In this document: positions 763 through 56,509 of the stretch, piece by piece
How positions within the stretch are numbered: position 1 is the first letter of the stretch
How the letters are laid out: the number at the start of each line of letters is the position of its first letter
Assembly (NCBI GenBank): GCA_963789615.1
Contig: CAWBLI010000008.1
Coordinates: 832,197-896,196 of the forward strand
Length of the DNA stretch: 64,000 bases
Direction: 5' to 3'
DNA from: an uncultured Actinomycetota bacterium
GTDB lineage: Bacteria > Actinomycetota > Actinomycetes > JAFAQI01
Translations under genes and position numbers: made by a program
Notes under the pieces: generated by a model
Databases searched by the model: none
Told to the model about the DNA's origin: nothing
What the model saw: the letters and a program-made list of their open reading frames with translations, nothing else

Positions 763-809
763 CCTGGAGTGTTCACGGCGAACCCGGGCTGACCTTTGAT
801 CTTGGCCCG
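763..809. repeat. short copy (B1) of a palindrome-containing intergenic repeat; longer copies at 40691-40907 and 50927-51129
   Basis: cctggagtgttcacggcgaacccgggctgacctttgatcttggcccg aligns with cctggagtgttcacggtgaacccaggctgaactcatgatcttggtcc at 51009-51055. Confidence 0.6.
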
Positions 810-1683: not shown

Positions 1684-1788
1684 GACCCACCTCCCGCTCG
1701 CCCATCCCAACAACCACGCCCCTGCTCCGCCGGCACGCTCGCCGCTACCGGCAACGGCAGGCACGATCTTCGCACGCGTCAATGATCC

Positions 1789-1815
1789 AGAACGCCGGCT
1801 CTGCGCGGTACCGCC
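1789..1815. repeat. copy of a ~27-nt GC-rich intergenic repeat (REP-like)
   Basis: agaacgccggctctgcgcggtaccgcc matches agagcgccggctctgcgcgctggcgcc (5585-5611) at 23 of 27 positions. Confidence 0.5.
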
Positions 1816-2730
1816 GATTTGTTGTCTGGAAGGCGTGCCTTGAGCGATACGCAATGATCGCCTAGTGCAACCCGGGGCAGGGCGAGGTCGTCCAACGGAT
1901 ATGTTGTTCCCGCGCGCCAGGCCCATCCAGTTGATCGCTGCCTGCGCATTGGTCTCCGCGACCGCCAGCTGCTCGGAGCATCGGCGCCCTATCGACCCAC
2001 TGCCCATGCGTCGGTGATGGCGCCATCCAGCGCGGCGAGCACCGATCGCGTTGGTCGAGCAGATCCGTGTCGAGCTGAAGTGAGGGGTAACCGGCTCGTG
2101 GCTCGCCTGGCCTACGGAGGGGACGTGTTCCTTCCGCCCAACGGGATCTCCCCACGAACCTCCCCTGCGGCGGCGAGAGCAACGCTGCTGGCCGATCCGA
2201 GCGCAAGTCTCCTCGGTCACCGTCACCAGCAGGAGATATTCGCGATCTATCAGAACTTCGAGGGTCGTCGACCAGTATGGCTTCTCCTAGAGCACCACAT
2301 TCCGTCATCCGGATCGCTTAGCAACAAGATCGTTAATCACGATCTTGTCGATGTCCTCAACGACCACGCCCGGCGACCCGTTGCAATACTCGACGCTCTC
2401 CCAGGCGGCTGTCGACAACCTCAGCCCACTGATCGTTCAACCTCGACCGCCCTGGCTGCTCGCTGCAGCCCTGTCGGGCTGTCAGTCTCGACAAGCACCG
2501 GTCAGACCACGCTGGTCCTCCATGAGGTTCCCGGATGGGGGGCGCCGGTGAACTCCGAGTCGACGGCAACCCCCGCGTCGATCCATGGGTGCGGGAACTC
2601 GACTACCGGCTCGATGCTCGGGCGTAGCGTGCCGGCGGCGACTATGACGGCTGAAATCGGCGCTCATTTCGTTAGTCTGCCCCTGCGAACGTCGACGTTC
2701 GCGAAATCTGTTTCGGGAGGGGAGCAGGAC

Positions 2731-3096: not shown

Positions 3097-3180
3097 CCAT
3101 GGCGCAGATTCCGATCGATCCGATCGGTGCGACTGTGCATTGTGAGCCCGTCGAACCCCGTCACGATGGACTGACTCAAA

Positions 3181-3206
3181 GCGCGCAGAGCGCCAGCTCT
3201 GCGCGC
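3181..3206. terminator. perfect 11-bp stem / 4-nt loop hairpin between convergent genes
   Basis: gcgcgcagagc-gcca-gctctgcgcgc lies between the dsrE-like stop (3096) and the anti-sigma stop (3275). There is no U-tract, so this is hairpin evidence only. Confidence 0.45.
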
Positions 3207-3216
3207 TAGCGCCACC
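3187..3216. repeat. copy of the ~27-nt GC-rich intergenic repeat
   Basis: agagcgccagctctgcgcgctagcgccacc is near-identical to 5585-5614 and similar to 42413-42440 and 1789-1815. Confidence 0.6.
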
Positions 3217-5565: not shown

Positions 5566-5584
5566 CTTGTTCTACAAACGATCG

Positions 5585-5614
5585 AGAGCGCCGGCTCTGC
5601 GCGCTGGCGCCACC
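5585..5614. repeat. copy of the ~27-nt GC-rich intergenic repeat
   Basis: agagcgccggctctgcgcgctggcgccacc lies between the transglutaminase-like stop and the methyltransferase start. Confidence 0.6.
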
Positions 5615-28828: not shown

Positions 28829-29479
28829 TCACCTCCGAATGTCCGTGTCGCGGAACAAGTCGAGGAGTTCCTGCTGCGAGTGCACGCCCAGCTTGCGGAA
28901 GGTCGAGGACAGGTAGTTGCGGACTGTGCTCTGTGCCAAGTACATCGAGCGAGCGATAGCGGGGACCCGATCGCCGCGGAGCAGCCGGCGAGCGACGTCA
29001 CGCTCACGATCGGAGAGCGCAGAGAGATCCGGGGTGACGGGCAGAACGGAGGCAGCGTTAGTGCCGGCCTGGTACAGGCCGACGGCCCGGGCAACTACGC
29101 GCAGGAAGGTGTCGGGAAAGGGGCCACCCCCGGCGCCCGCATCGATCGCGGAATGTCGAACGAGAGCGAAGGCGCAGCTGGGTGCCGGGAGCAGGGGCGC
29201 GACGATGAGGGAGGCGGGGACCAGCCGTCGACCGCGATAGCGAAGGTGGACGCGCAGGGCACCGCCGGTTGGGCTGCTCGCCAGGACCCGCAGCAGGGGA
29301 CCGGTGTCGCTCTGGCTGATCAAAGTCAACAGCGAGGTGCCCAACACCTCGTCGTGCCGTGAACCAAGCAGGACCTCGACATCGCGGCCGATCCGATCGA
29401 CGATGAAGTTGGAGTCGACGGACCCCACGACAACGCACGGACCTGGCTGGTTGTCGTCGATCAGCGTGGCTCCAGCCAC
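28829..29479 (-). CDS. PAS-like / LuxR-HTH transcriptional regulator
   Basis: The C-terminal HTH is LSDRERDVARRLLRGDRVPAIARSMYLAQSTVRNYLSSTFRKLGVHSQQELLDL. It ends 18 nt upstream of the GAF-EAL gene. Confidence 0.8.
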   Translation of the reverse strand: MAGATLIDDNQPGPCVVVGSVDSNFIVDRIGRDVEVLLGSRHDEVLGTSLLTLISQSDTGPLLRVLASSPTGGALRVHLRYRGRRLVPASLIVAPLLPAPSCAFALVRHSAIDAGAGGGPFPDTFLRVVARAVGLYQAGTNAASVLPVTPDLSALSDRERDVARRLLRGDRVPAIARSMYLAQSTVRNYLSSTFRKLGVHSQQELLDLFRDTDIRR

Positions 29480-29593: not shown

Positions 29594-30640
29594 TCACGGG
29601 TGTGAAGGCGGTCTGTCCTTTTTGCGCAGTAGATCGAGCAGTTCTTGCTGCGAACTTACGCCGAGCTCGCGGAAAACTGACGATAGGTGGTTGCGGACCG
29701 TGCTGGGGCTGAGGTACAGGTCGCGGGCGATGGCCGGCACCCGATCGCCCGAGAGCAACCGCTCGACGATCTGCAGTTCGCGGGTTGACAGTCCCGTGAT
29801 CCCCGGGATGTCGCGACGAATATCAGCCAGATTGCGGGACACAGACGTCAGTCCCGCCGCATCGACAAACCGCTGGAGCAGGTCCTCGAGGTCGCTGCGG
29901 GCGGATGTGGACAGGTCAATGGACGGATCGCTGACCAGTGCGAACGCGATGCTGGGAGACGGGACCAGCGGCCACAGCGCTACCAGGGTCGACACGGGAC
30001 CCCCGTCTTGGGTCCGCAACCCGATCCGGGTCATGCCACCGATACCCGTCGCGACGGTCTGGGCCAACGCGGACAGCAGGTCCGCGGCGTCTGGCGCATC
30101 GACGAGCCAGAGCAGCGGCTTCCCCAGAACCTCATCCGCGCCGAAGCCGAGCAGCCGCTCGACCTCGCCCGAGATCCGATCAATGACCAGCCCGCGGTCC
30201 GCGGAGCCCACCGCTACCACTCCCCGTGCGTCGGTGGGTTGGGCTCGCGGCGGAAGATAGTGCGGACGTGTCGGTTCCAAGATGACGGCAAATGCCAGGC
30301 GTACCTCCGGCCCTTGGTCCGCCGGGCGGACCCACATGTCATAGGGAACGCGCTGGCCGCCGACGCGTACCTGGCGGGTCGTCTGGTACCCGGAGATACG
30401 GCCGGTGCGAAGTAGCGGCAGACCCCCCGATGGCGAATCCTCAGTGAAGTCTTCGAGGTTGTGGCCCACTACGTCGCCGGAGTCGTTGGACAGCAGGTGG
30501 ACGGCCGACGGGCTCGCCGCCACGATCGTCTCGCTCTCGACGTCCAGCAGCAGGGTCGGAACGGGACATGCCTCGGTCGCCCGGATCGCGGCGACGGATC
30601 GGCTCGACGTCGGTCGGGAACGGCCGCGGGATCCCGCCAC
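29594..30640 (-). CDS. double PAS-like / LuxR-HTH transcriptional regulator (paralog of 28829-29479)
   Basis: The C-terminal HTH is LSTRELQIVERLLSGDRVPAIARDLYLSPSTVRNHLSSVFRELGVSSQQELLDL. Two sensor modules, the second resembling that of the neighbouring gene. Confidence 0.8.
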   Translation of the reverse strand: MAGSRGRSRPTSSRSVAAIRATEACPVPTLLLDVESETIVAASPSAVHLLSNDSGDVVGHNLEDFTEDSPSGGLPLLRTGRISGYQTTRQVRVGGQRVPYDMWVRPADQGPEVRLAFAVILEPTRPHYLPPRAQPTDARGVVAVGSADRGLVIDRISGEVERLLGFGADEVLGKPLLWLVDAPDAADLLSALAQTVATGIGGMTRIGLRTQDGGPVSTLVALWPLVPSPSIAFALVSDPSIDLSTSARSDLEDLLQRFVDAAGLTSVSRNLADIRRDIPGITGLSTRELQIVERLLSGDRVPAIARDLYLSPSTVRNHLSSVFRELGVSSQQELLDLLRKKDRPPSHP

Positions 30641-30729
30641 CGGCTCACCTCCCGCTCGGCGATTACCGAGCTCCCGTTTGTTCGGGACAGATAGGAGTAT
30701 GCGCGCCGCCTCGGATTAGCGCTAAGGGT

Positions 30730-30951: not shown

Positions 30952-31155
30952 CCGAATCGTCGGCGCGGCTTTCGACCAGCATCTGGGGCGCGAGCGCTGT
31001 CGGAATGACGCGCCTTCTCATTGGCCTCGGCGACGCCAGCCTCGTTGAGCGAATAGAAGTTGAGCGAATAGAAAGGGACGCTGACCTGCTCTGCAACTGG
31101 GATCGCTTCTTTGGTCCCGCCACCTGTCTCCCGGCTGCCTCATCTCGAGTTCGGG

Positions 31156-33774: not shown

Positions 33775-34569
33775 TCACCCCACCACATTGGGAGCGCGGC
33801 CCCGGGAGTAGACCACTCCTACGAAGCGCCCGCCATTGTGGTGGTGAGATGCCCGCGCAGTTCCATGGGTCCAGTCCCCGGCAAGATGAAGCACGAGCAG
33901 GCCCGTTCCCACGCTGACCGCGATGGCGAGGACGAAAATGCCGCCTCGCCAGGCGGCGCCGGGCGGTCGGTGATGTCGAGGCCGGGCACCGACGGCAATC
34001 TGGGCGGCGGGCACGGTCCGGGCGAGCGCATGAAGGCCGGTCGCGACGGCCCATATCGCGAAGCAGGCTTGATGCAGCGTCAGTGCGTCGATGCGATACC
34101 CCGCGATGGACACGATTGTGGTGAATGTGGCGCTTCCCAGGGCGATCAAGGCAAGCCCGGTGCCGAGCACAGCGAGACCGGTGAGGATGACGAAGGGGCC
34201 GAGCAAACGCAGCAGCATCGGCGGCGGTCCACCCTGGCGGTACTCGTCGGATCCTAGGTAGTAGCGGGCGATGCGCCAGCCCGTCGTTGCCGTCTTCAAC
34301 AGAACCATCGGGACTAGCGCCGCACCGAGCAGGATGTGCAAGCTCAGCATGAGGTGAAGCGAGATCAGCGTGAAGCACTCGACAAGAAACGCCACAAGCA
34401 GGACCAGTCCGGTCCACGCGGTGAGCCGCGCATTACCGGCCGGCCCTCCGGTGACTGGTGCGACGGGATCGTCGCGATGCCGGGCACCAAGGGCGGTATC
34501 CCACACGTCGCGAAGAGCGCCGTCAACTGTGGGTGCTGCGCCGCGCCCTCTGGTCTCCGACCCATTCAT
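33775..34569 (-). CDS. hypothetical polytopic membrane protein
   Basis: Starting from ATG 34569 (MNGSETRG...), there are 5-6 hydrophobic helices, e.g. LTAWTGLVLLVAFLVECFTLISLHLMLSLHILLGAALVPMVLL. Confidence 0.55.
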   Translation of the reverse strand: MNGSETRGRGAAPTVDGALRDVWDTALGARHRDDPVAPVTGGPAGNARLTAWTGLVLLVAFLVECFTLISLHLMLSLHILLGAALVPMVLLKTATTGWRIARYYLGSDEYRQGGPPPMLLRLLGPFVILTGLAVLGTGLALIALGSATFTTIVSIAGYRIDALTLHQACFAIWAVATGLHALARTVPAAQIAVGARPRHHRPPGAAWRGGIFVLAIAVSVGTGLLVLHLAGDWTHGTARASHHHNGGRFVGVVYSRGRAPNVVG

Positions 34570-34762
34570 CGCAAATCCAGGGTGGCCGGCGCCGAGCCGA
34601 GGCATCTGCTCGAGACGTCCGCAGCGGCCCGGACGACCCGCGCCGGGTTCTGGCCGGTAGCGAACGACTGCCCGCTGGCCACCTAGCCAGCATGCCGCAG
34701 TCGTGGAAAGCAGGACCACTCAGTTTGCTCTGAGTGTCCTCTGAGACAGCTCCAGTGAGAAA

Positions 34763-35132
34763 ATGACGAAGGTCAGGTCGGCGACCTCTACCGATCTGAC
34801 GCTCGTCCTCAGAGCCGGAGCACAGGTCAGCGACTCAGCCACCAGGTTGGTTGGTTGGTCAGTACCTACAGCAGGTGCTACCAGGGAACCTAGCCGCGGG
34901 TTCGGCGGCGTTGCTCGCGTGCAAGGTATCAAATGGGCCGTTTCTGACGAGAAACCGCTATCCGACAGGCTTCTGGATGTTCTGGAGCGTGTTGATCTTC
35001 AACGCAGCGGCAGCTGGACTATTGGGGCTGACTCCGGGCCAGTTCCTCGCCACGGTTGGATGCACTGTGACCCGTCTACATCAGCATCTGCTCGGTTCTG
35101 GAAGAGCGGTCGCGACGGCCGGCGGCGTTTGA
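34763..35132 (+). pseudogene. possible DUF4279-like gene with a frameshift (low confidence)
   Basis: Frame 34763 gives LTLVLRAGAQVSDSATRLVGWSVPT...GIKWAVSDEKPLSDRLLDVLERV. Frame 34851 continues LIFNAAAAGLLGLTPGQFLATVGCTV. The pattern resembles DUF4279 as I recall it. Codon bias is weak. Confidence 0.25.
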
Positions 35133-35507
35133 CGCCGCGTTCAACCTGCGGTGACCCGAGCGACGTGGGAAGGGCGAGGTGTTGCCTCATTTCGCGGTTG
35201 ACCCGGTGGCCGGCGATCGCGCGTGGAGCGTCGCCATCGTCGTTGCTCTTCTTGTGATCCTTTACGCGGGCTTGAGCGTCCGCCGACTGTCTCGGTGCGT
35301 CAGCCCGGAGTCTCGACCTGGCGATGACACGTCACTCTTTCGAATGAAAACGCCCGAGAAGCCACTACTTGAGGCTCGCGCCGTGTGAGCCGGGGATGCG
35401 GCACGATCTGATGGCGATCCGACGCGAGGCAGTCTGACTGGAATCGTTCGCTGGCAGAAGCGGTCTCAACCATGCGGTGGAGGTCGATCATGCACTGAGG
35501 AGGCATA

Positions 35508-36755
35508 GTGGGTGGTGCAGCCGACGCGCAGCCGGATTATTACGCTGCCTCCGCCGGTGGCAAGCGTGAGCGTCTAGCGCGCGCAGCCCCGACCGGGGTA
35601 GGGGAGGCCTTCCCCAAGACCCTGGTGGTGACAGCTCATTTCCCACCTCGACGAGGGGGTGTCGAACGATTCACCACTGAGCTGGTCCGCCGCCTGCCGG
35701 CCGATCGCATCGTGGTCGCCGCGCCGGGAGGTCCCGATTGCTCGGAGGCTGATAGTCAGTTGCCCTTTAGAGTGCACCGGTACGGGAGACGGCCGTTGTC
35801 CAACCCGACTCTTCCGTCGACCCTCGCGCGCTTGGTGGCCGAGCATGGCTGCCATGCAGCCTGGGTCACTTCGGGCATCCCGCTCGGAGTGGTGACTCCG
35901 TGGTTGCGTCGGGCCGGTGTTCGCCGGATCGTGGTCTCGACGCACGGCCTGGAATCCGGATGGGCTGGGTGGGCAGCAGCGGCTGTAGTGATCCGTCGAG
36001 CGACGTCGCTGGTTGACGTCGTGACCTACCTCGGGCCGTTCACCCGTGACTCCCTCAAACCGGTCTTGGCGCCCGGCGTTGAGCTGGTGCAGCTGGCTGG
36101 TGGAGTGGACGTCGGTCATTTCTCACCCGCCGTCTCGGGGGCTCGCCTGCGCGAGGAGCTGGGCCTCGCCGGCCGGCGAGTCGTAGTCAGTGCCTCGAGG
36201 CTGGTCCGCCGCAAAGGCCAAGACCGGTTGTTACGGGCCTGGCCGACATTGCTACGGCGGCACCCGGACGCGGCGTTGCTCATCATCGGTGAGGGTCACC
36301 ACCGGGGCGCGTTGCAGCGACAGGTTCACCGGTTAGGGCTGGCTCGCCATGTGCGAATGGTCGGTTCGATCTCCGACGAGCGCCTGCCTGAGTATCTAGC
36401 CGTGGGAGAGATCTTCGCCTTGCCGTGCCGCACGATGTGGTGGGGCATGCAGGTGGAAGGGCTCGGCTTGAGCATTTTGGAGGCGTCCGGAGCCGGCTTA
36501 CCGGTGGTCGTGGGACGGTCAGGCGGCGCGCCGGACGCCGTGGTTGACGGCCGAACGGGGGTGCTCATCAACGACTGGACAGCTCACGGTCTCGCCGCCA
36601 CTCTCGCTGATCAGCTTGACGACCCGGACCGGATGCGCGAGATGGGCGCGACCGGCCGCGCCTGGGTTACGGATCGCTGGTCGTGGGACGCCGCCGCTGG
36701 GCAGCTGGCTCGTTCGGTCGCTGCCACCAGCCGCCACGCTGCCATGCCGGACTGA
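35508..36755 (+). CDS. GT4-family glycosyltransferase (PimB-like mannosyltransferase type)
   Basis: LVVTAHFPPRRGGVERF is the N-terminal motif, and EGLGLSILEASGAGLPVVVGRSGGAPDAVVDGRTGVLI is the E-x7-E region. GTG 35508 has GGAGG 4 nt upstream. Confidence 0.85.
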   Translation: MGGAADAQPDYYAASAGGKRERLARAAPTGVGEAFPKTLVVTAHFPPRRGGVERFTTELVRRLPADRIVVAAPGGPDCSEADSQLPFRVHRYGRRPLSNPTLPSTLARLVAEHGCHAAWVTSGIPLGVVTPWLRRAGVRRIVVSTHGLESGWAGWAAAAVVIRRATSLVDVVTYLGPFTRDSLKPVLAPGVELVQLAGGVDVGHFSPAVSGARLREELGLAGRRVVVSASRLVRRKGQDRLLRAWPTLLRRHPDAALLIIGEGHHRGALQRQVHRLGLARHVRMVGSISDERLPEYLAVGEIFALPCRTMWWGMQVEGLGLSILEASGAGLPVVVGRSGGAPDAVVDGRTGVLINDWTAHGLAATLADQLDDPDRMREMGATGRAWVTDRWSWDAAAGQLARSVAATSRHAAMPD

Positions 36756-37879
36756 AGCCCCCTCACTTCCGTGACCGTGCCAGCCAAGGACGCCGCTCCA
36801 TCGGGTGAGCCTCCAAGAGCACGCAAGCGCCTGTAGTGGCCGACGACCGCCGCGCGCAGAGTGGCGTACTCCGTCATCGGCAGACCGGTGCGCTCGAGCG
36901 CTTCTGGCACCGCCGTCCGGTGTAGCCCGGGAAGTTCGGAGCGCACAGCGACGGGTCGCAGGTGATGCGCGAGATGGTGCGTGAGGCCACCGGTAAACCA
37001 GCGCAACGCTGTGCTGTCGGTCGCGAACGATGCGGTGGTCAGGACGAGGTTGCGAGTCCAGTCGCGACGAGCCGACGCCTCGGCCGGCTCGAGGCCCTGG
37101 TTAATGTGGCCGACCACAAGCAACACCGCGGCGAGGACACTCGCGCAGGTCATGGCGACCAGGAGCAGAACTGCTAGTGGAGTGAAGCCAAGGACCAGCC
37201 CGTAAGGCAAGAGGACGACAAGCCATAGGCCCTTCTCGAGGATAAAAGATCCGGCACGTTCCGCCGGGCTGGGGGTCGTGGTGCCGGCGACAAACCCCGT
37301 GCGAAGGTAGGTCAGCTGGCTTCTCAGCTCACCCGCCCACGCCAACCCGTATAGCGCCCAGGCATAGAGATGCTGGTAACGGTGAACGGGGCGACCAGGC
37401 GCAGCGGGATGCAGCCGCACCAGCCCGGATGATCTAGTGGACTCGTCGAGCAGGTAAACCTGCGACATCTTGTGGTGAACCCGATGCTTCAGCGTCCAGT
37501 GGGAAGTCCACAGACCGACCGGTGTGGACAGTTGTACCGCTAGGACGTTAGGCCACGCCCGCACCGAGTACATTCGGTGACCGGCGTCATGCAGGACCGT
37601 CAAGGTCCCGACTGCAAGCCCCACTGACAAGGGCACCGCGGCCAACAACAGGTTGATGCCCCGCGGGTGGAGCAGTGAGATCGCCGTCAACATGCCGTTG
37701 TTCAAGAGCGCGATGATCAACCAATCACGCCACGGCTCCCACCGCCGGCGGCGAGGCAGAACGAGTCGCCGGTGGGCGACAGGCGGAGCCTGGGCGCTCG
37801 ATTCTGGGCTGCCGGGACTTGCCGAACTCATGTGCCGGCCACGAGGGCGAAAGGGGGGATCCGGGACCGGCCCTTTCAT
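36611..37879 (-). CDS. membrane fatty-acid desaturase family protein
   Basis: Three His boxes are present: HDAGH, HRVHH and HHLAHH. Start taken as ATG 37879 (GAGGTG 8 nt upstream); ATG 37831 is the alternative. Its 3-prime end overlaps the convergent GT4 gene by 145 nt. Confidence 0.8.
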   Translation of the reverse strand: MKGPVPDPPFRPRGRHMSSASPGSPESSAQAPPVAHRRLVLPRRRRWEPWRDWLIIALLNNGMLTAISLLHPRGINLLLAAVPLSVGLAVGTLTVLHDAGHRMYSVRAWPNVLAVQLSTPVGLWTSHWTLKHRVHHKMSQVYLLDESTRSSGLVRLHPAAPGRPVHRYQHLYAWALYGLAWAGELRSQLTYLRTGFVAGTTTPSPAERAGSFILEKGLWLVVLLPYGLVLGFTPLAVLLLVAMTCASVLAAVLLVVGHINQGLEPAEASARRDWTRNLVLTTASFATDSTALRWFTGGLTHHLAHHLRPVAVRSELPGLHRTAVPEALERTGLPMTEYATLRAAVVGHYRRLRALGGSPDGAASLAGTVTEVRGLQSGMAAWRLVAATERASCPAAASHDQRSVTQARPVAPISRIRSGSSS

Positions 37880-38127
37880 CACGCTGACACCTCGGTCTCT
37901 GGCGGACGAGTGACAACCCTGTCCAGTCTCACGTAGCACGACTACGGGGGCCGCCCAACGAAACGCGACACAGCGCCGCGATGGCACGTTAGTGGCGGTC
38001 TGACTACTGCGAATCGGACAATCGGAGTAACTTCCCTGAACGCCGTAGGACGTGGGATGTAGGCCGATAGTCGTAACGAACGTCCGCTGGGTTGATGTCG
38101 CCCCCCTTCCTTTCTCACTAGCGTCGA

Positions 38128-40230
38128 GTGGTGGCCATTGAGCAGCCGATCGCGCCGTGGCGACACCGGCCCGAACTCGATGGCCTGCGGTCCGTGGCGG
38201 TCTACCTAGTCGTGCTGTTTCATAGCGGGCTCGCCATTGCCGGTGGCGGCTTCATTGGCGTCGACCTGTTCTTCGTGCTCTCCGGCTTCCTGATCACCAA
38301 CGTTCTGCTCAGTGACATCGACGTCTCTGGGCGAGTCCACTTCGGGCAGTTCTACTCCCGGCGTGCACGCCGGCTTCTGCTCCCGGCGGTCGTCGTCATC
38401 GTCGTGACGTGTGTGGTGTTCCTGCTGATCGCGAGCGTCGTGCAGCGGCTCCCACTTGTCGGCGATGCGCAAAGCGCCCTGTTGTACGTTGCCAACTGGC
38501 GGTTTCTCAGTGAGAGCAACAACTACTTCGCGACCGGTTTCGCCAAGAGTCCGTTCCTGCACTTCTGGTCGCTCGGCATCGAAGAGCAGTTCTACGTCGT
38601 GTTCCCAGTGCTTCTCCTGTTGCTGACCCGTCTGGGACGCCGGCGTCCCTGGTTGCCAGCTGTCGGTCTCGCCGTCCTGTTCGCCCTGTCGCTCACTGCC
38701 GAGGTGTATTGGTCACGCCTTGACCCGAACCACGCGTACTACGGCACGGACGCCAGGGCCTACCAGCTGCTCGCCGGCGCTCTTCTGGCGCTGGCGCTGC
38801 GGGTCCAGCGCGCCCGCCTGACACTGCGGGGGGCGCGCGCGGCCGACGCTGCGGCGATGGTCGGGATGGCAGGTCTATTGCTGCTCGGCAGCGGGCTGCT
38901 GGACTTGAGTGTGTCCCGGCGCGGTATCGCGGCCGTTGCCGCCAGCACGCTGCTGATCGCTGGCCTGAGCGCCGCCGAAGGCGGTCGTCTCGCCGCCGTC
39001 CTGTCGCACCGCACCCCGGTCTATCTCGGCAGTGTCTCCTACGCGACCTATCTGTGGCACTGGCCAATCATCATCGCGGTTACGACGCTGTTCACCGTCA
39101 GCCACCTCGAGCTGGCCCTCATCGCCGCCGCGCTGGCGACGGGTCTTGCCGCCTTGTCCGCTGTGGTTGTAGAGAACCCGGTCCGGCGCCGGTCGGTACT
39201 GGACCGCTACCGCTGGCCGACGGTGGCGGCGGGCGTGTCGTTGTGCAGCATCGTTGCCGTCGCGCTCGTGCCGCCGGTGCTCGACAGCACGCGCCGACCG
39301 GCAGTCACCACAGCGGTCTCCGAACCCAACCACTACGTTCCCGCGCGGGCAGTCCCCGTCCGACATCGAAGGTCGTACCAGGCGCAGGCCAAAGCTCGTA
39401 TCCCGAGATTGAACTGGCAGGCGCTTGCGGCGCACAATGGACCTGCCCGGACCTGCGGTGCCTCCGATCCACAAGCGTGCACTGTCGTCCGCGGCGGCCC
39501 GCTGAGCGTAGTGCTGATCGGAGATAGTCACGCCCGGATGATGGCGCCCGTGCTGACCCAGCTTGCGCGACAGCACGGCTTCACGCTCTCGATCAATGCG
39601 ATGTCGTCGTGCCCATGGCAGGCTCAGCTGACCAACCTTGTAATGACCCACGCCCAGCAAGTGCAGTGCACCGCAGCCCGGGATGGGTGGTACGGGACGG
39701 TGCTCCCTCAGCTGCATCCGAACCTGGTGATCCTGGCGTCCTATGCCCGCGACAACGTCTCGATCTACGGGCACAGTCTCCTGCGCACCGGCGGGTCCAA
39801 CGAATCGCTGCACCAACTGATCAAAGACACGACGAACGAAACACTCGCGCGCATCACGAGCACTGGGGCGCACGCACTGATGATGGACAGCATCATTGTC
39901 GGTCGCTTCGACCCACTCGAGTGCCTCTCGCGGTCGACGTACGTGCGTCAGTGCACCGTGCGCCCTCCAGCGCCACCGATCAGCGACGCTTACTATGCGG
40001 CGGCTGCGGCGGCCCACCCCGGCAAGGTGTTCACCTTCAACATCAACGGCGCGGCATGCCCCACCGCACCTGCCTGTCTGCCCATGCTCGACGGCATACC
40101 GGTATGGCGAAATATCAATCACTACAACACCCAGCTCCTTGCCCACCTACACAACCAGATCTGGAGGTCGATCGTCCGCAGTGGAGCCCTGAAAGGTCTG
40201 CCCATCCCCAATCAAGACAACAACCCGTGA
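38128..40230 (+). CDS. acyltransferase-3 family membrane protein with C-terminal SGNH-like domain (OafA/YrhL type)
   Basis: RPELDGLRSVAVYLVVLFHS...GVDLFFVLSGFLIT is the AT3 N-terminal motif. It has about 10 TM helices. The C-terminal region has VVLIGDSHA. Confidence 0.9.
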   Translation: MVAIEQPIAPWRHRPELDGLRSVAVYLVVLFHSGLAIAGGGFIGVDLFFVLSGFLITNVLLSDIDVSGRVHFGQFYSRRARRLLLPAVVVIVVTCVVFLLIASVVQRLPLVGDAQSALLYVANWRFLSESNNYFATGFAKSPFLHFWSLGIEEQFYVVFPVLLLLLTRLGRRRPWLPAVGLAVLFALSLTAEVYWSRLDPNHAYYGTDARAYQLLAGALLALALRVQRARLTLRGARAADAAAMVGMAGLLLLGSGLLDLSVSRRGIAAVAASTLLIAGLSAAEGGRLAAVLSHRTPVYLGSVSYATYLWHWPIIIAVTTLFTVSHLELALIAAALATGLAALSAVVVENPVRRRSVLDRYRWPTVAAGVSLCSIVAVALVPPVLDSTRRPAVTTAVSEPNHYVPARAVPVRHRRSYQAQAKARIPRLNWQALAAHNGPARTCGASDPQACTVVRGGPLSVVLIGDSHARMMAPVLTQLARQHGFTLSINAMSSCPWQAQLTNLVMTHAQQVQCTAARDGWYGTVLPQLHPNLVILASYARDNVSIYGHSLLRTGGSNESLHQLIKDTTNETLARITSTGAHALMMDSIIVGRFDPLECLSRSTYVRQCTVRPPAPPISDAYYAAAAAAHPGKVFTFNINGAACPTAPACLPMLDGIPVWRNINHYNTQLLAHLHNQIWRSIVRSGALKGLPIPNQDNNP

Positions 40231-40428: not shown

Positions 40429-40632
40429 CGATCTGCTGATCGATTTGGATATCGGGTTGTCGGTCAACCCGACGTCGAGCGTCACGAAGTGGTAGTCCGT
40501 AGCCCCGGCGAGGATCGGATGTAGGCGGCTGAACGACCGTTTGAACGGCCGTTTGAACGCGGAACGAACTTTTGATCTTGGTCCGTACGGCGCGAACGCC
40601 TCGGTCCGGAGGTAAAAGGCCAGGTCAGAGGT
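40429..40632. repeat. flank repeat A1, similar to the region 3-prime of the intact tRNA-Lys (56253-56434)
   Basis: Shared blocks: atcgg.gt.tcggtcaacccga, gtcacgaagt, ggctgaac.accgtttgaac, cgtttgaac, tgatcttggtc and aaaggccaggtcaga. Confidence 0.6.
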
Positions 40633-40677
40633 GGTGCGCCGCGAGGGACTTGAACCCCCAACCCGCTGATTACGAGT
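40633..40677 (-). repeat. copy of the 3-prime half of tRNA-Lys(CTT), att-like
   Basis: 40633-40672 is identical to 56435-56474 (discriminator, acceptor 3-prime strand, T-arm, variable loop, anticodon-stem 3-prime strand, first loop bases). One mismatch and 4 more matches follow. The 5-prime half of the tRNA is absent. Confidence 0.75.
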
Positions 40678-40690
40678 GGCCCCGACGGCT

Positions 40691-40907
40691 GTAGGCGGCT
40701 GAAGGCCAGAGCTGCCAGCAGCGTTTGTGCAGGTCAGCGCCTCGCTCCACCGCCATCGAAACCGGTTCAGTGTGTGGAGTGTTCACGGTGAACCCAGGCT
40801 GAACTCTTGATCTTGATCTTGATCTTGGTCCGGGCCGGGGCTTTCCTGTCCCAATCAGTGAGCCAGCAGCACCCCACATCTTGAACCAGTCAAGCCGAGC
40901 GATAGCC
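40691..40907. repeat. intergenic repeat B2 (~200 bp), homologous to 50927-51129
   Basis: It aligns from gtaggcggctgaaggcc... through ggagtgttcacggtgaacccaggctgaactc and tgatcttggtcc to cttgaaccagtcaagccgagcgatagcc. It contains (TGATCT)x3 where the other copies have x1. Confidence 0.7.
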
Positions 40908-40996
40908 ACTTATGCGTGTTCACTCTTTGGGCATGAGGACGTGTCGGCCCGGTGGGGTGATGCTGCTGGTGAGCCGACTGGATTCTGGAGAACCTG

Positions 40997-42385: not shown

Positions 42386-42412
42386 CCGAGCCCAGGCGAA
42401 GCGAACCGCACG

Positions 42413-42440
42413 AGAGCGGGTTCTGCGCGCTAACGCCACC
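42413..42440. repeat. copy of the ~27-nt GC-rich intergenic repeat
   Basis: agagcgggttctgcgcgctaacgccacc lies just after the stop at 42385. Confidence 0.5.
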
Positions 42441-43399: not shown

Positions 43400-43833
43400 G
43401 CCCCTTCGTGTGCGACCTGGCTGAAATCACTACCGCTTCCACGTGTCAGCATCCAATCAGTTCGCGGTGGTCTGGTTCCAGTCCACAGCTCAGTGACTGA
43501 GTCCGCTCGGCTGAGTGTGTCTTCCGACGACGGATGCGGTCGGCTTCCCTTACCGTGCCGCGGACCTGCGACATGCATCAAGCGAAGCGATCTGGTCTCA
43601 AAGGTCGACCTCTACACCGAGTTCGCACATCCCGACCTGGCAGGCCAGGGCGCACGAGAGCGCCGGCTTCACGGTAGCTCTGTCTGCGCTACCGGCGTTG
43701 ACGGCGCCACATTTCGATACGGAACCCGATCAGGTGGCACCGCCCACCGTCGTCAGGACCGTAGCCACGATCCGACCGGACTCGCCCTCGATGCTTACCA
43801 GGCGATCAAGATCAGGAGCCCGGCGAATGTCAC

Positions 43834-44455
43834 TCAAGCATCCTGCGCACTCGTGTGAGCCCAGACGGCGGCCCAACCAGTCGCACACGTGGGCTCTCTA
43901 CCCGTGATGCGGCTTATGTCATCCGCGCGCGTTCGATCCGGACCGCCACCGATGGTCGGCATGTACTGGCTCGCATCGCAGGGCCTGAACTGACTCGCGC
44001 GAGCGGGAGCCTGGCGCGGATCGGCCGCGGCCAGCTTTACGAGCGCGGTCGCATCCACGCGATGAAGCTGGCACAGGCGTGACACCGGGAGCCTGCAGTC
44101 ACATCGTCCCACGATGACCATGCCGCTGCGTAGCGGGATCCGTGGCGACCAGATCATCCGGGTCGGCTTGGCGTTCGCGACCACGATCCCGCGTAGCCAT
44201 CCCGCGACCAGCTCGAGCAACCCGACGAAGCGGCGCGGTGAAAGCATCCGCCACGGCGGCACGATCTCGCCGAGCGGCGCCAGGGCAGCAGCAACCAGGA
44301 TCGCGACGGGCGCCGACCAGCAGCACCTCGAGGGTCCGCTTCCAGGTGAGCAGCACCCAGACGCCCAGGTTCCACGCCGTCAGCCCGAGCACGCGGCGGC
44401 CGAACCGCCGGCGACCCACTGCCGGGCCGACCCGGGGGTCATCTATCGGACACAC
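43834..44455 (-). pseudogene. MnhE/MrpE-like cation antiporter subunit remnant, frameshifted; possible MnhF/G debris downstream (43560-43850)
   Basis: Frame 44099..44455 gives RVLGLTAWNLGVWVLLTWKRTLEVLLVGA. Frame 43834..44262 continues FVGLLELVAGWLRGIVVANAKPTRMIWSPRIPLRSGMVIV. Both resemble the MnhE N-terminal and central regions. Recognition is from memory only. Confidence 0.35.
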
Positions 44456-44621
44456 GAAATGGCATCACCGGAAACCGGACCCAGCAACCCCCCGGCTGGC
44501 GACGAACCCACAACGAGGCCGAGATGGCCATCCGCATCCGACGCGCCGGGCATGCTCCGCCGGTTCCGGGGCAGGACAGGGAGATCTACTGAGTCATCGG
44601 GGCAGATCGGCCGGGAGAGCC

Positions 44622-46427
44622 ATGACGACAACGGTTGCTGACTATCTACTCGAACGACTGCGCGACTGGGATGTCGGGCAGGTCTTCGCCTATCCCGGCG
44701 ATGGCATCAACGGGCTGCTGGCGGCCTGGGGACGCGCGGAGAACAAGCCGCAGTTCGTCCAGTCCCGGCACGAGGAGATGTCGGCGTTTGAGGCGGTGGG
44801 CTTCGCGAAGTTTTCGGGCAAGGTCGGGGTGTGCGCGGCGACGAGCGGGCCCGGCGCGATCCATCTGCTTAACGGCCTGTACGACGCGAAGCTCGACCAC
44901 GTGCCCGTCGTCGCCCTCGTCGGGCAGACCGAGCGCAGCGCGATGGGCGGCTCCTACCAGCAGGAGGTCGACCTGCTGAGCCTGTTCAAGGACGTGTGCA
45001 GCGACTACGTGCAGATGTGCACCGTGCCCAAGCAGCTTCCCAACCTGCTCGACCGCGCGATGCGGGTCGCGGCCTCGGAGCACGCACCCACCTGCCTCAT
45101 CTTCCCCTCCGACGTGTTCGAGCTGCCGTACGAGCCGCCGGGGCACGCGTTCAAGCAGGTTCCGTCGAGCCTCGGCATCACCACCCAGCCCATCGAGGCG
45201 CCGGATCCGGTTGGCCTGCGGGCCGCGGCAGACATCCTCAACGCCGGCGAGAAGGTCGCGATTCTCATCGGCCAGGGTGCTCGCGATGCTGCCAACGAGG
45301 TCGTCGCGGTGGCCGACGCGCTCGGCGCCGGTGTCGCGAAGGCGCTGCTCGGTAAAGACGTGCTGTCCGATGAGCTGCCGTTCGTGACCGGTTCGATCGG
45401 TCTGCTCGGCACCACGGCGAGCTATCTGATGATGCGGGACTGCGACACCCTCCTCACGGTGGGGTCCAACTTTCCCTACACCCAGTTCCTGCCTGAGCTC
45501 GACCAGGCGAAGGCGGTGCAGATCGACCGGGACGGCAAGTGGATCGGGATGCGCTACCCGTACGAGGTCAACCTCATCGGGGACTCGGGGGCGACACTGC
45601 GTGCGCTGCTGCCGCTGCTGACTCGCAAGACCGACCGGTCGTGGCGTGAGGAGATCGAAGGCAACGTCGCGGACTGGTGGCAGACCGCGGAACGCCGGGC
45701 GATGACGAGCGCCGACCCGATCAACCCGATGCGGATCGTGCACGAGCTGTCGGAACGGCTCCCCGAGAACGCGATCGTGGCTGCGGACTCCGGGTCGGCG
45801 CGCGAACTGGTACGCCCGCCACCTGAAGATCCGTGGTCGAGTGCGCGGATCGCTGTCGGGGACGCTGGCGACGATGGGGCCCGGGCGTGCCGTACGTGAT
45901 CGGCGCGAAGTGGGCTCATCCCGACCGGCCGGCCATCGCGCTGGTCGGTGACGGCGCGATGCAGATGAACGGCCTGGCCGAGCTCATCACGATCAAGCAC
46001 TACTGGCAGCAGTGGGCGGACCCTCGGCTCATCGTGGCCATCCTGCACAACAACGACCTCAACCAGGTCACCTGGGAGATGCGGGCGATGGAGGGCTCAC
46101 CGAAGTTCGCCGAGTCCCAGACACTGCCCGACGTCGACTACGCCGGCGTTCGCCCGCAGCCTCGGCCTCGGCGGGATCAATGTCGAGAAGCCCGACGACG
46201 TCGGACCGGCCTGGGAAACCGCGCTCGCCGCGGACCACCCGACGGTGCTCGACATCCGCTGCGACCCGGACGTCCCGCCGATCCCGCCGCACGCCACGTT
46301 CGCGCAGGCCAAGTCGGCCGGACTCGCCGTACTGCACGGCGACGAGGACAGGTGGGGCTTCGTGAAACAGGGTCTCAAGCAGAAGGTGCAGCAGTACCTT
46401 CCCGGCACCAAGGACGACGACCAGTGA
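44622..46427 (+). pseudogene. PoxB-like thiamine-diphosphate pyruvate oxidase/dehydrogenase, three +1 frameshifts
   Basis: MTTTVADYLLERLRDWDVGQVFAYPGDGINGLL... is intact to about 45800. NWYARHLKIRGRVRGSLSGTLATMGPG is then in frame +1, VPYVIGAKWAHPDRPAIALVGDGAMQMNG (TPP-binding GDG motif) in frame +2, and FARSLGLGGINVEKPDDVGPAWE...DDQ* in frame +3. ATG 44622 follows GGGAGAG. Confidence 0.85.
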
Positions 46428-46472
46428 GCCCAGCTCGGAACCCTCACTCGGCGTTCACCGGCGGAGTCAAGC

Positions 46473-46921
46473 GTGATCGGCATCGACCGGCTGATCCGCG
46501 ACGTGCGGACCGGCCGGTTCGAACGGACCCTGGCGGCGCTGACCGCGGCCGGCGCGGTCATCACCGACGGCGGAGATCTACACCTCGCACGACTCGGCGA
46601 GCTTCGGCAACCGGATGATGTGGTGGCCGATCGTCATCATGCCGACCCTCGTGCCGGCCGGGATCGCCGCGGTGTTCTCGCGCCGGGCCGCCAAGACCGT
46701 GCTGCCGATCGCGTCCGCCATCGTCGTCGCGAACGGCCTGCAGGGCACCTACCTGCATGCTCGCGGCATCGCGCAGAAGCCCGGCGGCTGGAAGCTCGCC
46801 GCGTACAACCTCGAGATGGGACCGCCGCTGTTCGCTCCACTGCTCGCCGCACTCGTCGGCGGGATGGGGCTGCTCGCGGCGATACTGCGCCGCGAGGGCG
46901 ACGCCCACGGTCCCGCGCTGA
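46473..46921 (+). pseudogene. small membrane protein of a GMC-dehydrogenase cluster, frameshifted at 46566
   Basis: MIGIDRLIRDVRTGRFERTLAALTAAGAVIT is in frame 0. TAEIYTSHDSASFGNRMMWWPIVIMPTLVPAGIAAVF...LLAAILRRE is in frame +1. The end is uncertain: a TGA at 46919 overlapping ATG 46921 is in yet another frame. Confidence 0.5.
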
Positions 46922-50395: not shown

Positions 50396-50748
50396 TCAGC
50401 GAGCAGGTCAAAAGAGTTCCCCGCACACAGAGGGTCGCTGAAAGCGTCACAGGCCTTCGCGCCCTCCTCGTGCCAAGGTAACCATCGAAGTTGTGAAGGA
50501 ACCGCCTTTTTGTGTATGCGGTTGCGGGTATCGCGTAGCCAACCTCCGCCACCGTCCCTCACGAAACGGTGCCAAGGTTCCGCGAGGTCACGCAGCGCCC
50601 TGACCTGCGGTGCTGCGGGGACGGCAGGACGACACTGCTCGACCTGATCAGCTTCCGGGGTGGGCCTGTGGTCAAACGTGGTCAAGATCAACACCGAGGC
50701 AGTCTGCTCGGCGACCGAGAACTGCCTCTGGACTGCGATTTCACTGAG

Positions 50749-50812
50749 TGCGCCCGGCAGGATTCGAACCTGGCTACCGCCTCCGGAGGGCGATGCTGCG
50801 CCAGGCAGCGGC
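50749..50812 (-). pseudogene. tRNA-Arg(CCG)-like fragment (D-arm to 3-prime end; acceptor stem cannot pair)
   Basis: The minus strand reads GCTG-CCTGGCG-CAGC A TCGCC-CTCCGGA-GGCGG ...CCAGG-TTCGAAT-CCTGC-CGGGCGC-A. The anticodon loop carries CCG and the T-loop is canonical. There is no complementary 5-prime acceptor strand, and positions 49:65 mismatch. Confidence 0.45.
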
Positions 50813-50926
50813 GGTGCAAAGGCGATTGGCGATGAAGTCGGCCTGCTCGCTCAAGTCATATGGCGACCGCGGCACCCGCTTGCCGAAACCGTTGTGGGCA
50901 GCTGATTGGGAGTTGGTCCGGCGGCT

Positions 50927-51129
50927 GTTGATGGCTGAAGGCTCGAGACGTCAGAAGTGTTTGCGCTGATCAGAGCCTCACAACCTTCGACGAGGCAGGT
51001 GCACAGTGCCTGGAGTGTTCACGGTGAACCCAGGCTGAACTCATGATCTTGGTCCAGCGAGGACTTGCCTGTCCTCAAATCGTGACCCGGCGGCATCCTC
51101 TTCTTGAACCAGTCAAACGAGCGATAGCC
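50927..51129. repeat. intergenic repeat B3 (~200 bp), homologous to 40691-40907
   Basis: See B2. It contains the hairpin gcctgg-agt-gttca-cgg-tgaac-ccaggc at 51008-51035. Confidence 0.7.
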
Positions 51130-51172
51130 CCGCTGGTGACCAGACGGTTGCGTTGGAGGTTCGGCTCGAAAC

Positions 51173-52761: not shown

Positions 52762-53215
52762 TCACACCTCGGGCTCGCGAGGGCGGCTCCAGCTTGGGCC
52801 AGCGTGACAGTGCGAGTTGATGAACGCCTGCGTCGGCGCTCCGGTGGGTTCGGGGTCGAGGTGCACCAGGCACACCGGCTGCGTGGCGAGCGGGTCATTA
52901 AGGCGCAGGACGCAGGTCGCCAGCTCGCGTGGCACTACGTCCGCCGCGGCACTGCGGGGCACCATCGCTACGCCGATTCCCTGGACCGCGAGGCTGGCGA
53001 TGTCGGCGGGGTTCCGCAGCTCGCAGACCACCATGCAAGGGTCAGGGGTTCGAGTCGCCACAGCTCCACAGAGACTGACCTCTATTGGCCTTACTCGAAC
53101 ACCGCGTCACTCGGCCAGATGAAGGTCGCGCCATGTAGCGCCACCCGTCGCTCGACGGCTCGGCACCGCTACTGCGAGCAACGAATCACCGGCTTGCTCC
53201 AGGCGACCCAGCCAG
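52762..53215 (-). pseudogene. LysR-type regulator relic (parts of the effector domain only)
   Basis: ORF 52762..53061 gives ...ADIASLAVQGIGVAMVPRSAA...PVCLVHLDPEPTGAPTQAFI, like a LysR substrate-domain C-terminus. 53107-53215 gives LLPLVDWLGRLEQ...LLAVAV. The HTH and most of the effector domain are missing. Confidence 0.45.
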
Positions 53216-56252: not shown

Positions 56253-56434
56253 CGATCTGAACATCGGGGTCTCGGTCAACCCGATGCGACTGTCACGAAG
56301 TCGTGGCCCAGGCGAAGAGACGGGGTGAGACGGCTGAACAACCGTTTGAACCGTTTGAACCCAAAATAAGCTCATGATCTTGGTCGACGTCGTCGCGGAC
56401 CGCTCTTCAGGAGCTGAAAGGCCAGGTCAGAATG
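56253..56434. repeat. flank repeat A2 immediately 3-prime of tRNA-Lys, similar to 40429-40632
   Basis: See A1. It contains a tandem ccgtttgaa x2 (56342-56360) and tgatcttggtc. Confidence 0.6.
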
Positions 56435-56436
56435 GG

Positions 56437-56509
<73 letters not shown>

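What the first reader, a model, noticed from the sequence alone, without database searches (positions are those of the whole stretch)
50927..51129. Family of ~200-bp intergenic repeats with a bulged 11-bp hairpin, each lying next to a tRNA fragment
40691-40907 and 50927-51129 align over their whole length, and a short third copy lies at 763-809. The conserved core is GCCTGG-AGT-GTTCA-CGG-TGAAC-CCAGGC, a palindrome or hairpin, followed by TGAACTC and TGATCTTGGTCC. The far end is CTTGAACCAGTCAA.CGAGCGATAGCC. Both long copies sit 100-200 bp on the same side of a tRNA-derived fragment (Lys at 40633, Arg-like at 50749). Parts of the unit (GGCTGAAC, TGATCTTGGTC) recur in the A repeats next to tRNA-Lys. 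That pattern fits conserved arm regions of related integrative elements. A MITE/REP-like element or an sRNA is also possible. No ORF is conserved across the copies.
Basis: seen in the sequence. Interest (0 to 1): 0.65.

Follow-up and report, generated by a model that had tools for sequence, protein, structure and literature searches.

The report
Relic attachment-site arms at tRNA-Lys islands
The ~230-bp repeats are most likely leftover recombination-site arms from related mobile elements that inserted one after another at a tRNA-Lys gene. They mark the seams of a ~26-kb patchwork of acquired genes, which is a familiar kind of genome scar.

Summary
The repeats are real. Unit A (50901-51131) and unit B (40665-40909) align over their whole length, and a 47-nt core recurs at 763-808. 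The hairpin is complete only in A and is not kept by compensatory changes.

Unit B directly abuts a 45-nt direct repeat of the 3' end of tRNA-Lys(CTT) (gene at 56435-56509, minus strand). Unit A abuts a 13-nt vestige of the same fragment.

A close relative (L011) runs from tRNA-Lys straight into the genes found at about 30.7 kb in the window. The window therefore carries about 25.7 kb of extra DNA there, and A and B are internal seams of it.

Around the tRNA fragment, TGAAC repeats spaced 11-12 nt apart plus TGATCTTGGTC lie about 80-130 bp away on both sides. Two real phage attP sites for tRNA-Lys have the same layout.

No integrase or transfer gene remains.

Best reading: relic attP arms in a tandem array of decayed islands (CIME-like accretion). 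This is a known kind of feature in an unsampled actinobacterial lineage. No match was found in any public collection searched. Interest is low to moderate.

The parts
56435..56509 (-). Intact tRNA-Lys(CTT) gene, the integration target
   Evidence: ARAGORN; Rfam tRNA 66.3 bits
56252..56434 (.). tRNA-proximal flank, read as an element-derived arm (type I). It has a hairpin right after the tRNA 3' end and a block at 56324-56386 with TGAAC at -100/-88/-79 and GATCTTG at -59 from the tRNA end.
   Evidence: About 75% identical to 40440-40632. The block is also found next to tRNA-Lys in L013, L014 and L015 and is absent from L011. Motif map.
50901..51131 (.). Unit A: relic arm on the island-interior side of a decayed tRNA-Lys att core
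51009..51055 (.). Conserved core of unit A: GTTCAC-G-GTGAAC palindrome, TGAAC repeats 11 nt apart, TGATCTTGGTCC. Candidate arm-type binding sites.
   Evidence: 32-nt run identical to B; similar to the tRNA-Lys flank block; motif distances +104/+112/+123/+132
51102..51129 (.). Far-end conserved block of unit A (TCTTGAACCAGTCAA-CGAGCGATAGCC)
   Evidence: 15-nt and 12-nt runs identical to B, separated by a 1-nt indel
50901..50913 (-). 13-nt vestige of the tRNA-Lys anticodon arm (ACTCCCAATCAGC in tRNA orientation), contiguous with unit A
   Evidence: Alignment of A and B in tRNA orientation
50751..50806 (-). tRNA-Arg(CCG)-like remnant lacking the D arm: a second, unrelated att-type scar
   Evidence: Rfam tRNA 18.6 bits, E 0.52. 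Weak match to the annotated attP core of actinophage RP3.
40678..40909 (.). Unit B: relic arm directly abutting the displaced tRNA-Lys fragment
40773..40831 (.). Conserved core of unit B, including the (GATCTT)n expansion
40879..40907 (.). Far-end conserved block of unit B
40633..40677 (-). Displaced 3' fragment of tRNA-Lys (anticodon loop to 3' end), a direct repeat of 56435-56479
   Evidence: the repeat finder family D6, 90% over 73 nt; alignment. The same extent is the attP core of tRNA-Lys phages.
40440..40632 (.). Second copy of the tRNA-Lys 3' flank (type II, as in L014). Block at 40519-40585 with TGAAC at -103/-91/-79 and GATCTTG at -59. Together with 40633-40909 it forms an attP-like junction.
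763..808 (.). Copy C: solitary core only, just 3' of an alpha/beta-hydrolase gene (829-2226, minus strand), with no tRNA remnant nearby
30641..30711 (.). Point where synteny with the empty-site relative L011 resumes, which is the distal limit of the ~25.7 kb of extra DNA. No arm or tRNA fragment is recognisable here.

Best explanation
The units are the island-interior arms of attP-type recombination sites. They were left by related tyrosine-integrase elements that inserted serially into the 3' end of tRNA-Lys(CTT).

How it works:
- Each insertion rebuilt the tRNA from element DNA. It placed the element's hairpin-bearing arm next to the tRNA. It pushed the previous tRNA 3' fragment outward, with the new element's other arm (the 'unit') now abutting that fragment.
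- Repeating this produced tRNA-Lys, then the type I arm, then ~5 kb of cargo, then unit A with a core vestige, then ~10 kb of cargo, then unit B, the 45-nt tRNA fragment and the type II arm, then ~10 kb of cargo, then the chromosome.
- The conserved core is read as a cluster of arm-type integrase-binding sites. It comprises a GTTCAC-G-GTGAAC palindrome, TGAAC repeats one helical turn apart, and TGATCTTGGTC.
- The integrase and transfer genes have since been deleted, so the segments are now decayed, CIME-like islands.

Shown: the repeats, the tRNA fragments, their orientation and geometry, the empty site in a relative, and the absence of mobility genes.

Inferred: site-specific integration as the origin, the binding-site function of the core, and the order of events.
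For: 1. Empty site. L011 has paaABCDE, a cyclase, a 4HBT thioesterase and tRNA-Lys. These are followed after ~95 nt by the PAS-GerE, GerE and GAF-EAL genes that sit at 30640 and below in the window. The PAS-GerE proteins are 95% identical. The window therefore has ~25.7 kb extra, exactly downstream of the tRNA.

2. Displaced fragment. A 45-nt direct repeat of the tRNA-Lys 3' end lies at 40633-40677, starting at the anticodon loop. This is the displaced-fragment signature used to map islands, and it is the 'anticodon-centred' class (PMC4383910).

3. Real attP cores. The same tRNA-Lys stretch is the attP core of cluster-K-like mycobacteriophages such as Keshu, where a tyrosine integrase gene starts 155 bp away. 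It is also an exact match in IMG/VR phages with an adjacent 408-aa tyrosine integrase.

4. Geometry. In region B, TGAAC lies at -103/-91/-79 and +112/+123, with an inverted copy at +104, relative to the core. Keshu has GGTACAC at -79/-67 and +97/+110/+124/+143. The IMG/VR phage has GGCTACACC at -139/-128/-88/-76 and +83/+95. All three have a hairpin right after the tRNA 3' end.

5. Register. Units A and B carry identical motif distances from the core boundary: +20, +104, +112, +120, +123, +132.

6. Blocky conservation implies constraint on sequence rather than on structure.

7. The tRNA-proximal block exists in two allelic types. These are tRNA-proximal in different relatives and stacked in the window, as serial insertion predicts.

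8. The cargo looks acquired and decaying. The DUF1254/DUF1214 protein is ~82% identical to a Rhodococcus spelaei protein, with ~75-81% hits in Nocardia and other genera. A TPP-enzyme gene is frameshifted and only a LysR fragment remains.

9. Tandem accretion followed by decay to integrase-less CIMEs is documented (PMC5704250).
Against: - No integrase, excisionase, relaxase or transfer gene, nor any detectable remnant, lies in 30.7-56.4 kb (Pfam; PHROGs; tblastn with two tRNA-Lys integrases).
- The distal end of the extra DNA (~30.7 kb) has no arm or tRNA fragment.
- After its core vestige, unit A is not followed by the expected older arm.
- Copy C is not near any tRNA remnant.
- The unit was found nowhere else: not in phages, plasmids, IMG/VR, GTDB species representatives or metagenome contigs. 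No intact parent element is known.
- The flank block next to tRNA-Lys could be native chromosome rather than element DNA.
Confidence: 0.6

Rival explanations
1. The TGAAC / TGATCTTGGTC block is a native chromosomal feature of the tRNA-Lys 3' flank in this genus. Under this reading the units and the second tRNA fragment arose by segmental duplication or illegitimate or homologous recombination during ordinary rearrangement of a variable region, with no site-specific integration.
For: The block sits next to tRNA-Lys in four genomes with different downstream genes. No integrase is present anywhere. The unit core is only a diverged paralogue of the flank block.
Against: The duplicated tRNA piece starts exactly at the anticodon loop and runs to the 3' end, as in real attP cores. 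Repeat clusters flank it on both sides at attP-like distances. The closest long relative lacks the block entirely and has an empty site. Two block alleles are shared across genomes and stacked here.
Confidence: 0.15
2. The conserved core is an operator or binding site for a host or island-encoded regulator or nucleoid protein. Its 13-bp palindrome GTTCAC-G-GTGAAC plus direct repeats would then be kept for transcriptional control of neighbouring genes.
For: The constraint is on sequence, not structure. The core contains a perfect 6-bp inverted repeat. Solitary copy C lies outside any att context. Several TetR, MarR and LuxR regulators are nearby.
Against: Position relative to genes is inconsistent. 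B lies upstream of a plus-strand gene, while A and C lie 3' of minus-strand genes. The fixed register to a tRNA fragment is not expected for an operator. No promoter-like sites were found.
Confidence: 0.1
3. The units are copies of a non-autonomous mobile repeat (MITE- or REP-like) that happens to land in intergenic DNA.
For: There are three copies in 64 kb, all intergenic. Copy C is bracketed by a 7-nt inverted repeat, GTCTGCG/CGCAGAC. An IS30-like element has targeted the related flank block in L015.
Against: There are no convincing terminal inverted repeats or target-site duplications at the A/B ends. Identity of 69-72% with blocky conservation does not fit recent transposition. No copies occur in about 150 kb of related loci or in any public collection.
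Confidence: 0.07
4. The unit encodes a small structured RNA or a terminator hairpin.
For: Copy A can form a bulged hairpin. A and C lie just 3' of genes.
Against: There is no Rfam family match. Folding z-scores run from -0.75 to +0.85 on both strands. Substitutions in B and C break or weaken pairs without compensation. There is no U-tract and no promoter-like site. Orientation relative to genes is inconsistent.
Confidence: 0.04

Closest known systems
attP sites of tRNA-Lys-integrating actinobacteriophages with tyrosine integrases (Mycobacterium phage Keshu KP027199; IMG/VR UViG_3300010157_000450)
   Same: The core is the same stretch of tRNA-Lys, from the anticodon loop to the 3' end. A hairpin abuts the tRNA 3' end on one side. 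Clusters of 2-4 short direct repeats spaced 11-14 nt apart lie about 70-145 bp from the core on both sides, with one inverted copy.
   Different: The repeat motif differs: TGAAC / TGATCTTGGTC here, GGTACAC or GGCTACACC in the phages. There is no arm sequence similarity. No integrase gene follows the arm here, and that slot holds a DUF1254/DUF1214 gene or the 3' end of an SRPBCC gene.
Tandem accretion of integrative elements and CIMEs (ICESt1-type elements in Streptococcus; Streptomyces pathogenicity islands), as reviewed in PMC5704250
   Same: Several segments are stacked at one tRNA gene and separated by internal att-type junctions. The segments lack integration and transfer genes but keep their att sequences.
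   Different: All segments here lack mobility genes and no active partner element is visible. The distal attR is missing and one internal junction is truncated. Mobilisation is untested.
Islander-type tRNA-gene genomic islands and tandem arrays (PMC4383910)
   Same: There is an intact tDNA plus a co-oriented displaced 3' fragment. The crossover is of the anticodon-centred class.
   Different: Islander requires an integrase gene in each island, and none is present here. This array would therefore be filtered out by that method.
MITE / REP-type intergenic repeats
   Same: Short, intergenic, partly palindromic and repeated.
   Different: There are no terminal inverted repeats or target-site duplications. 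Copy number is low. The units sit in a fixed register to tRNA fragments, and the hairpin is not conserved.

Membership tests
tRNA-gene genomic island (Islander definition) | Intact tDNA plus a co-oriented displaced fragment of the same tDNA marking the island ends | tested here: met
   56435-56509 versus 40633-40677, same strand, 43/45 identical. A shorter vestige lies at 50901-50913.
tRNA-gene genomic island (Islander definition) | Integrase gene inside the island | tested here: not met
   Pfam on all sizeable ORFs from 30.7 to 56.4 kb, PHROGs on the unassigned ORFs, and tblastn with two tRNA-Lys tyrosine integrases gave nothing.
tRNA-gene genomic island (Islander definition) | Absence from a related genome (empty target site) | tested here: met
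   L011 goes from tRNA-Lys directly to the orthologue of window gene 29594-30640, which is 95% identical at protein level.
CIME / tandem accretion array | Internal junction with attP-like make-up: the arm of one element, the core, then the arm of the next | tested here: met
   40440-40909 consists of flank arm, 45-nt core and unit B, with repeat clusters on both sides.
CIME / tandem accretion array | Both outer att sites retained around DNA that lacks recombination and transfer genes | tested here: inconclusive
   The tRNA-proximal site is intact. The distal end at ~30.7 kb shows no arm or fragment. Mobility genes are absent.
CIME / tandem accretion array | Excision or mobilisation in cis or trans by a related element's integrase | not testable with these tools
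   This needs the rest of the genome, read-level data or experiments.
attP arm with arm-type sites (lambda / L5-type tyrosine integrase systems) | Clusters of short repeated motifs in both arms, tens to about 150 bp from the core | tested here: met
   Motif maps for region B, unit A, the native flank and two phage attP sites.
attP arm with arm-type sites (lambda / L5-type tyrosine integrase systems) | Cognate integrase that binds these motifs | not testable with these tools
   No integrase lies in the window.
MITE | Terminal inverted repeats and target-site duplication | tested here: not met
   Inspection of the A/B ends found neither. Only copy C has a 7-nt flanking inverted repeat.
MITE | Many dispersed, near-identical copies | tested here: inconclusive
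   There are 3 copies in 64 kb at 69-90% identity. None occur in related loci or public collections. The rest of the genome is unseen.
Structured RNA / Rfam family | Match to a curated family, or a structure supported by energy and covariation | tested here: not met
   There are no Rfam hits beyond the tRNA remnants. Folding z-scores are about 0. Substitutions in B and C are non-compensatory.

The most novel reading that the evidence does not exclude
The arms may still be functional. Under this reading the tRNA-Lys locus is a gene-capture platform. Integrase-less cargo segments of 5-10 kb, each bounded only by a ~470-bp attP module, would be excised, stacked and exchanged in trans by a tRNA-Lys-specific tyrosine integrase encoded elsewhere in the genome or on a visiting element. 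The tight conservation of the binding-site core would reflect ongoing selection for mobilisability.
Probability: 0.12. Interest if true: 0.6.

Novelty: new member of a known kind. Interest (0 to 1): 0.3.

Why it matters
The units precisely mark the seams of a ~26-kb patchwork of horizontally acquired metabolic, regulatory and cell-envelope genes at tRNA-Lys, in an uncultured Mycobacteriales/Frankiales-like lineage.

They also show that integrase-based island finders would miss this array, because no integrase remains.

If the arms are still used in trans, the locus would be an example of integrase-less cargo shuffling at a tRNA gene. Otherwise it is an ordinary, though neatly readable, record of serial integration and decay.

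Tried and rejected
1. Hairpin or sRNA reading. Folding of all three copies on both strands gave z-scores of about 0. There was no Rfam family match and no promoter- or terminator-like signal. Rejected.

2. Public copies of the unit. blastn against phages and plasmids and exact or degenerate core scans of IMG/VR, GTDB genome representatives and metagenome contigs found nothing. The only hits were chance matches inside genes.

3. Synteny through the acyltransferase (38128-40230). Its homologues sit in unrelated contexts, so this was uninformative.

4. Exact-protein look-ups of the window's own genes found nothing on record. The rest of the contig could not be reached.

5. More unit copies via DUF1254/DUF1214 homologues. 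The best hits are only ~82% identical and come from other genera. This is useful only as a hint of horizontal transfer.

6. The idea that the whole unit is a decayed 'tRNA-Lys plus flank' module, with the far-end block as a collapsed tRNA. Only the 30-nt core aligns significantly. Dropped.

7. A degenerate tRNA fragment at the distal boundary (~30.78 kb). It was suggestive by eye but had no Rfam support. Not claimed.

8. Integrase remnants. tblastn with two tRNA-Lys integrases was negative.

9. Short metagenome contigs of relatives mostly end at or just after tRNA-Lys. No intact parent element was seen.

Full report
**The observation**

Reading the three sites and aligning them confirms two full-length copies. 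These are unit B at 40665-40909 and unit A at 50901-51131. They are 69-72% identical (nhmmer E 1e-80 and 1e-74). A 47-nt core-only copy C lies at 763-808. The 29-nt core pattern gives 3 hits against 0 in shuffles.

Conservation is strongly uneven. There is a 32-nt identical run (TGGAGTGTTCACGGTGAACCCAGGCTGAACTC), then TGATCTTGGTCC, and a far-end block made of 15-nt and 12-nt identical runs. The spacers fall to 20-50% identity. The permutation p for the longest run is 3e-4.

Indels of 1 nt and of 12+1 nt rule out a shared reading frame.

In C the two substitutions weaken both stems without compensation. Folding energies on either strand are no better than shuffles.

Rfam finds only the tRNA-Lys gene at gathering threshold. 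At permissive thresholds it finds only tRNA-like remnants.

**Context**

The only tRNA gene in the window is tRNA-Lys(CTT) at 56435-56509 on the minus strand.

- Its last 45 nt, from the anticodon loop to the 3' end, are repeated in the same orientation at 40633-40677, together with about 190 nt of downstream flank.
- Unit B starts at the very next base, on the side where the tRNA 5' half would be.
- Unit A, in the same orientation, is contiguous with a 13-nt vestige of the same anticodon arm (ACTCCCAATCAGC).
- 94 bp further on lies a separate tRNA-Arg(CCG)-like remnant without a D arm (50751-50806). It weakly matches the annotated attP core of actinophage RP3.

**Comparative evidence**

The organism is an uncultured Mycobacteriales/Frankiales-like actinobacterium.

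A close relative, L011, has the same paa operon, cyclase, thioesterase and tRNA-Lys. After about 95 nt it continues with the PAS-GerE, GerE and GAF-EAL genes that lie at 30640 and below in the window. The PAS-GerE proteins are 95% identical. The window therefore holds about 25.7 kb of extra DNA (about 30711-56434) exactly downstream of the tRNA. Units A and B are internal seams of this insert.

The insert encodes metabolic enzymes, TetR, MarR and LysR regulators and a cell-envelope cluster. Several genes are broken. The DUF1254/DUF1214 protein is ~82% identical to a Rhodococcus spelaei protein, with ~75-81% hits in Nocardia and other genera.

No integrase, excisionase or transfer function was found by any of these tests:
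- Pfam.
- PHROGs.
- tblastn with two tRNA-Lys tyrosine integrases.

**The tRNA flank**

Three other relatives (L013, L014, L015) carry the same kind of block next to tRNA-Lys: GACCAAGATCA..GTTCAAACGG..GTTCAGCCG. Each has different genes beyond it, and L011 lacks the block.

The block comes in two allelic types. Type I is found at the window's tRNA, in L013 and in L015. Type II is found at window 40519-40585 and in L014. The unit core is a third, significantly similar paralogue (z = 4.7).

**Comparison with real attP sites**

The tRNA-Lys fragment matches unannotated sites in mycobacteriophages such as Keshu. There the site lies 155 bp upstream of a tyrosine integrase gene. An exact 37-nt match occurs in IMG/VR phage contigs that have no full tRNA gene but do have an adjacent 408-aa tyrosine integrase.

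In both phages a hairpin abuts the tRNA 3' end, and short direct repeats cluster on both sides of the core:
- Keshu has GGTACAC at -79/-67 and +97/+110/+124/+143.
- The IMG/VR phage has GGCTACACC at -139/-128/-88/-76 and +83/+95.

The window's region B has TGAAC at -103/-91/-79 and +112/+123 (inverted copy at +104), and GATCTTG at -59 and +132. Unit A has the same positive distances. The native flank has the same negative ones.

The unit occupies the arm that in the phages leads into the integrase gene.

**Interpretation**

The simplest account is serial site-specific integration of related elements at tRNA-Lys (tandem accretion), followed by loss of their mobility genes. This process is described for ICEs, IMEs and CIMEs (PMC5704250). 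It is also the basis of island mapping by displaced tRNA fragments (PMC4383910).

Region 40440-40909 is then an attP-like junction between two stacked islands. Unit A is a truncated equivalent. The conserved core is a set of arm-type binding sites.

These steps are inferred, not shown. No cognate integrase is available, the distal end lacks an att remnant, and copy C is unexplained.

**Rivals**

The rivals are a native flank duplicated by rearrangement, a regulator operator, a MITE/REP element and an sRNA. Each explains fewer of the observations and is weighted accordingly.

**Novelty**

The unit has no match in any collection searched. It is, however, a lineage-specific instance of a well-known class of feature.

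The most novel reading still open is that integrase-less cargo segments are shuffled in trans at a tRNA gene-capture site. It would need genome-wide and read-level data.

Noticed in passing
window 1781-1818, 3179-3216, 5577-5614, and weaker at 42412-42440: A second small repeat family. It is a GC-rich hairpin of about 30-38 nt (GCGCGCAGAGC-GCCR-GCTCTGCGCGC followed by GCGCCACC). A 20-nt pattern gives 3 hits against 0.14 expected. The fourth, weaker copy lies just after the stop of the DUF1254/DUF1214 gene. It looks REP- or terminator-like.
   Followed up: partly
window 50751-50806 (minus strand) and 50669-50720: A tRNA-Arg(CCG)-like remnant lacks the D arm, yet its acceptor, anticodon and T arms can still pair. 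In tRNA orientation it is followed by a hairpin and by TTGACCAC twice plus TGATCTTG. That motif is in the opposite orientation to the one in the Lys-type arms. This is probably a scar of a different, Arg-specific element.
   Followed up: partly
window 40806-40826: The hexamer GATCTT is expanded to 3-4 copies in unit B, against one copy in unit A and in the tRNA flanks. This looks like slippage inside the putative binding-site cluster.
   Followed up: no
window 44142-46618, 52762-53061 and 43400-44620: There are signs of gene decay inside the insert. A TPP-enzyme gene is split by a frameshift, only the C-terminal part of a LysR-type regulator remains, and about 1.2 kb has no coding signal.
   Followed up: partly
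L015 6198-7238 (JGI Ga0634874_0006463): An IS30-like element (rve plus HTH_38 transposase) is inserted inside the conserved tRNA-Lys flank block, between GACCAAGATCATGAGCTAATTTTGGGG and GCGTTCAAACGGCTGTTCAGCC.
   Followed up: no
L013 and L022 contig ends: These two metagenome contigs of relatives stop about 70-110 nt after tRNA-Lys. This is consistent with assembly breaking at a variable or repeated spot.
   Followed up: no
window ~31045-31075: A 15-nt tandem duplication (TTCTATTCGCTCAAC, two copies) lies in the non-coding stretch at the distal edge of the extra DNA.
   Followed up: no
window 33775-40230 compared with L007 7539-12076: The cell-envelope cluster in the oldest segment comprises a membrane protein, a GT4 glycosyltransferase, a fatty-acid desaturase and an Acyl_transf_3-SGNH acyltransferase. 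It resembles an LPG-synthase-TM, GT4 and acyltransferase cluster in a Mycobacteriales MAG, so it may move as a unit.
   Followed up: no
window 28840-28987 versus 29614-29761: A 148-nt direct repeat at 71% identity falls inside two adjacent GerE/LuxR-family genes. It reflects paralogous domains, not a mobile repeat.
   Followed up: no
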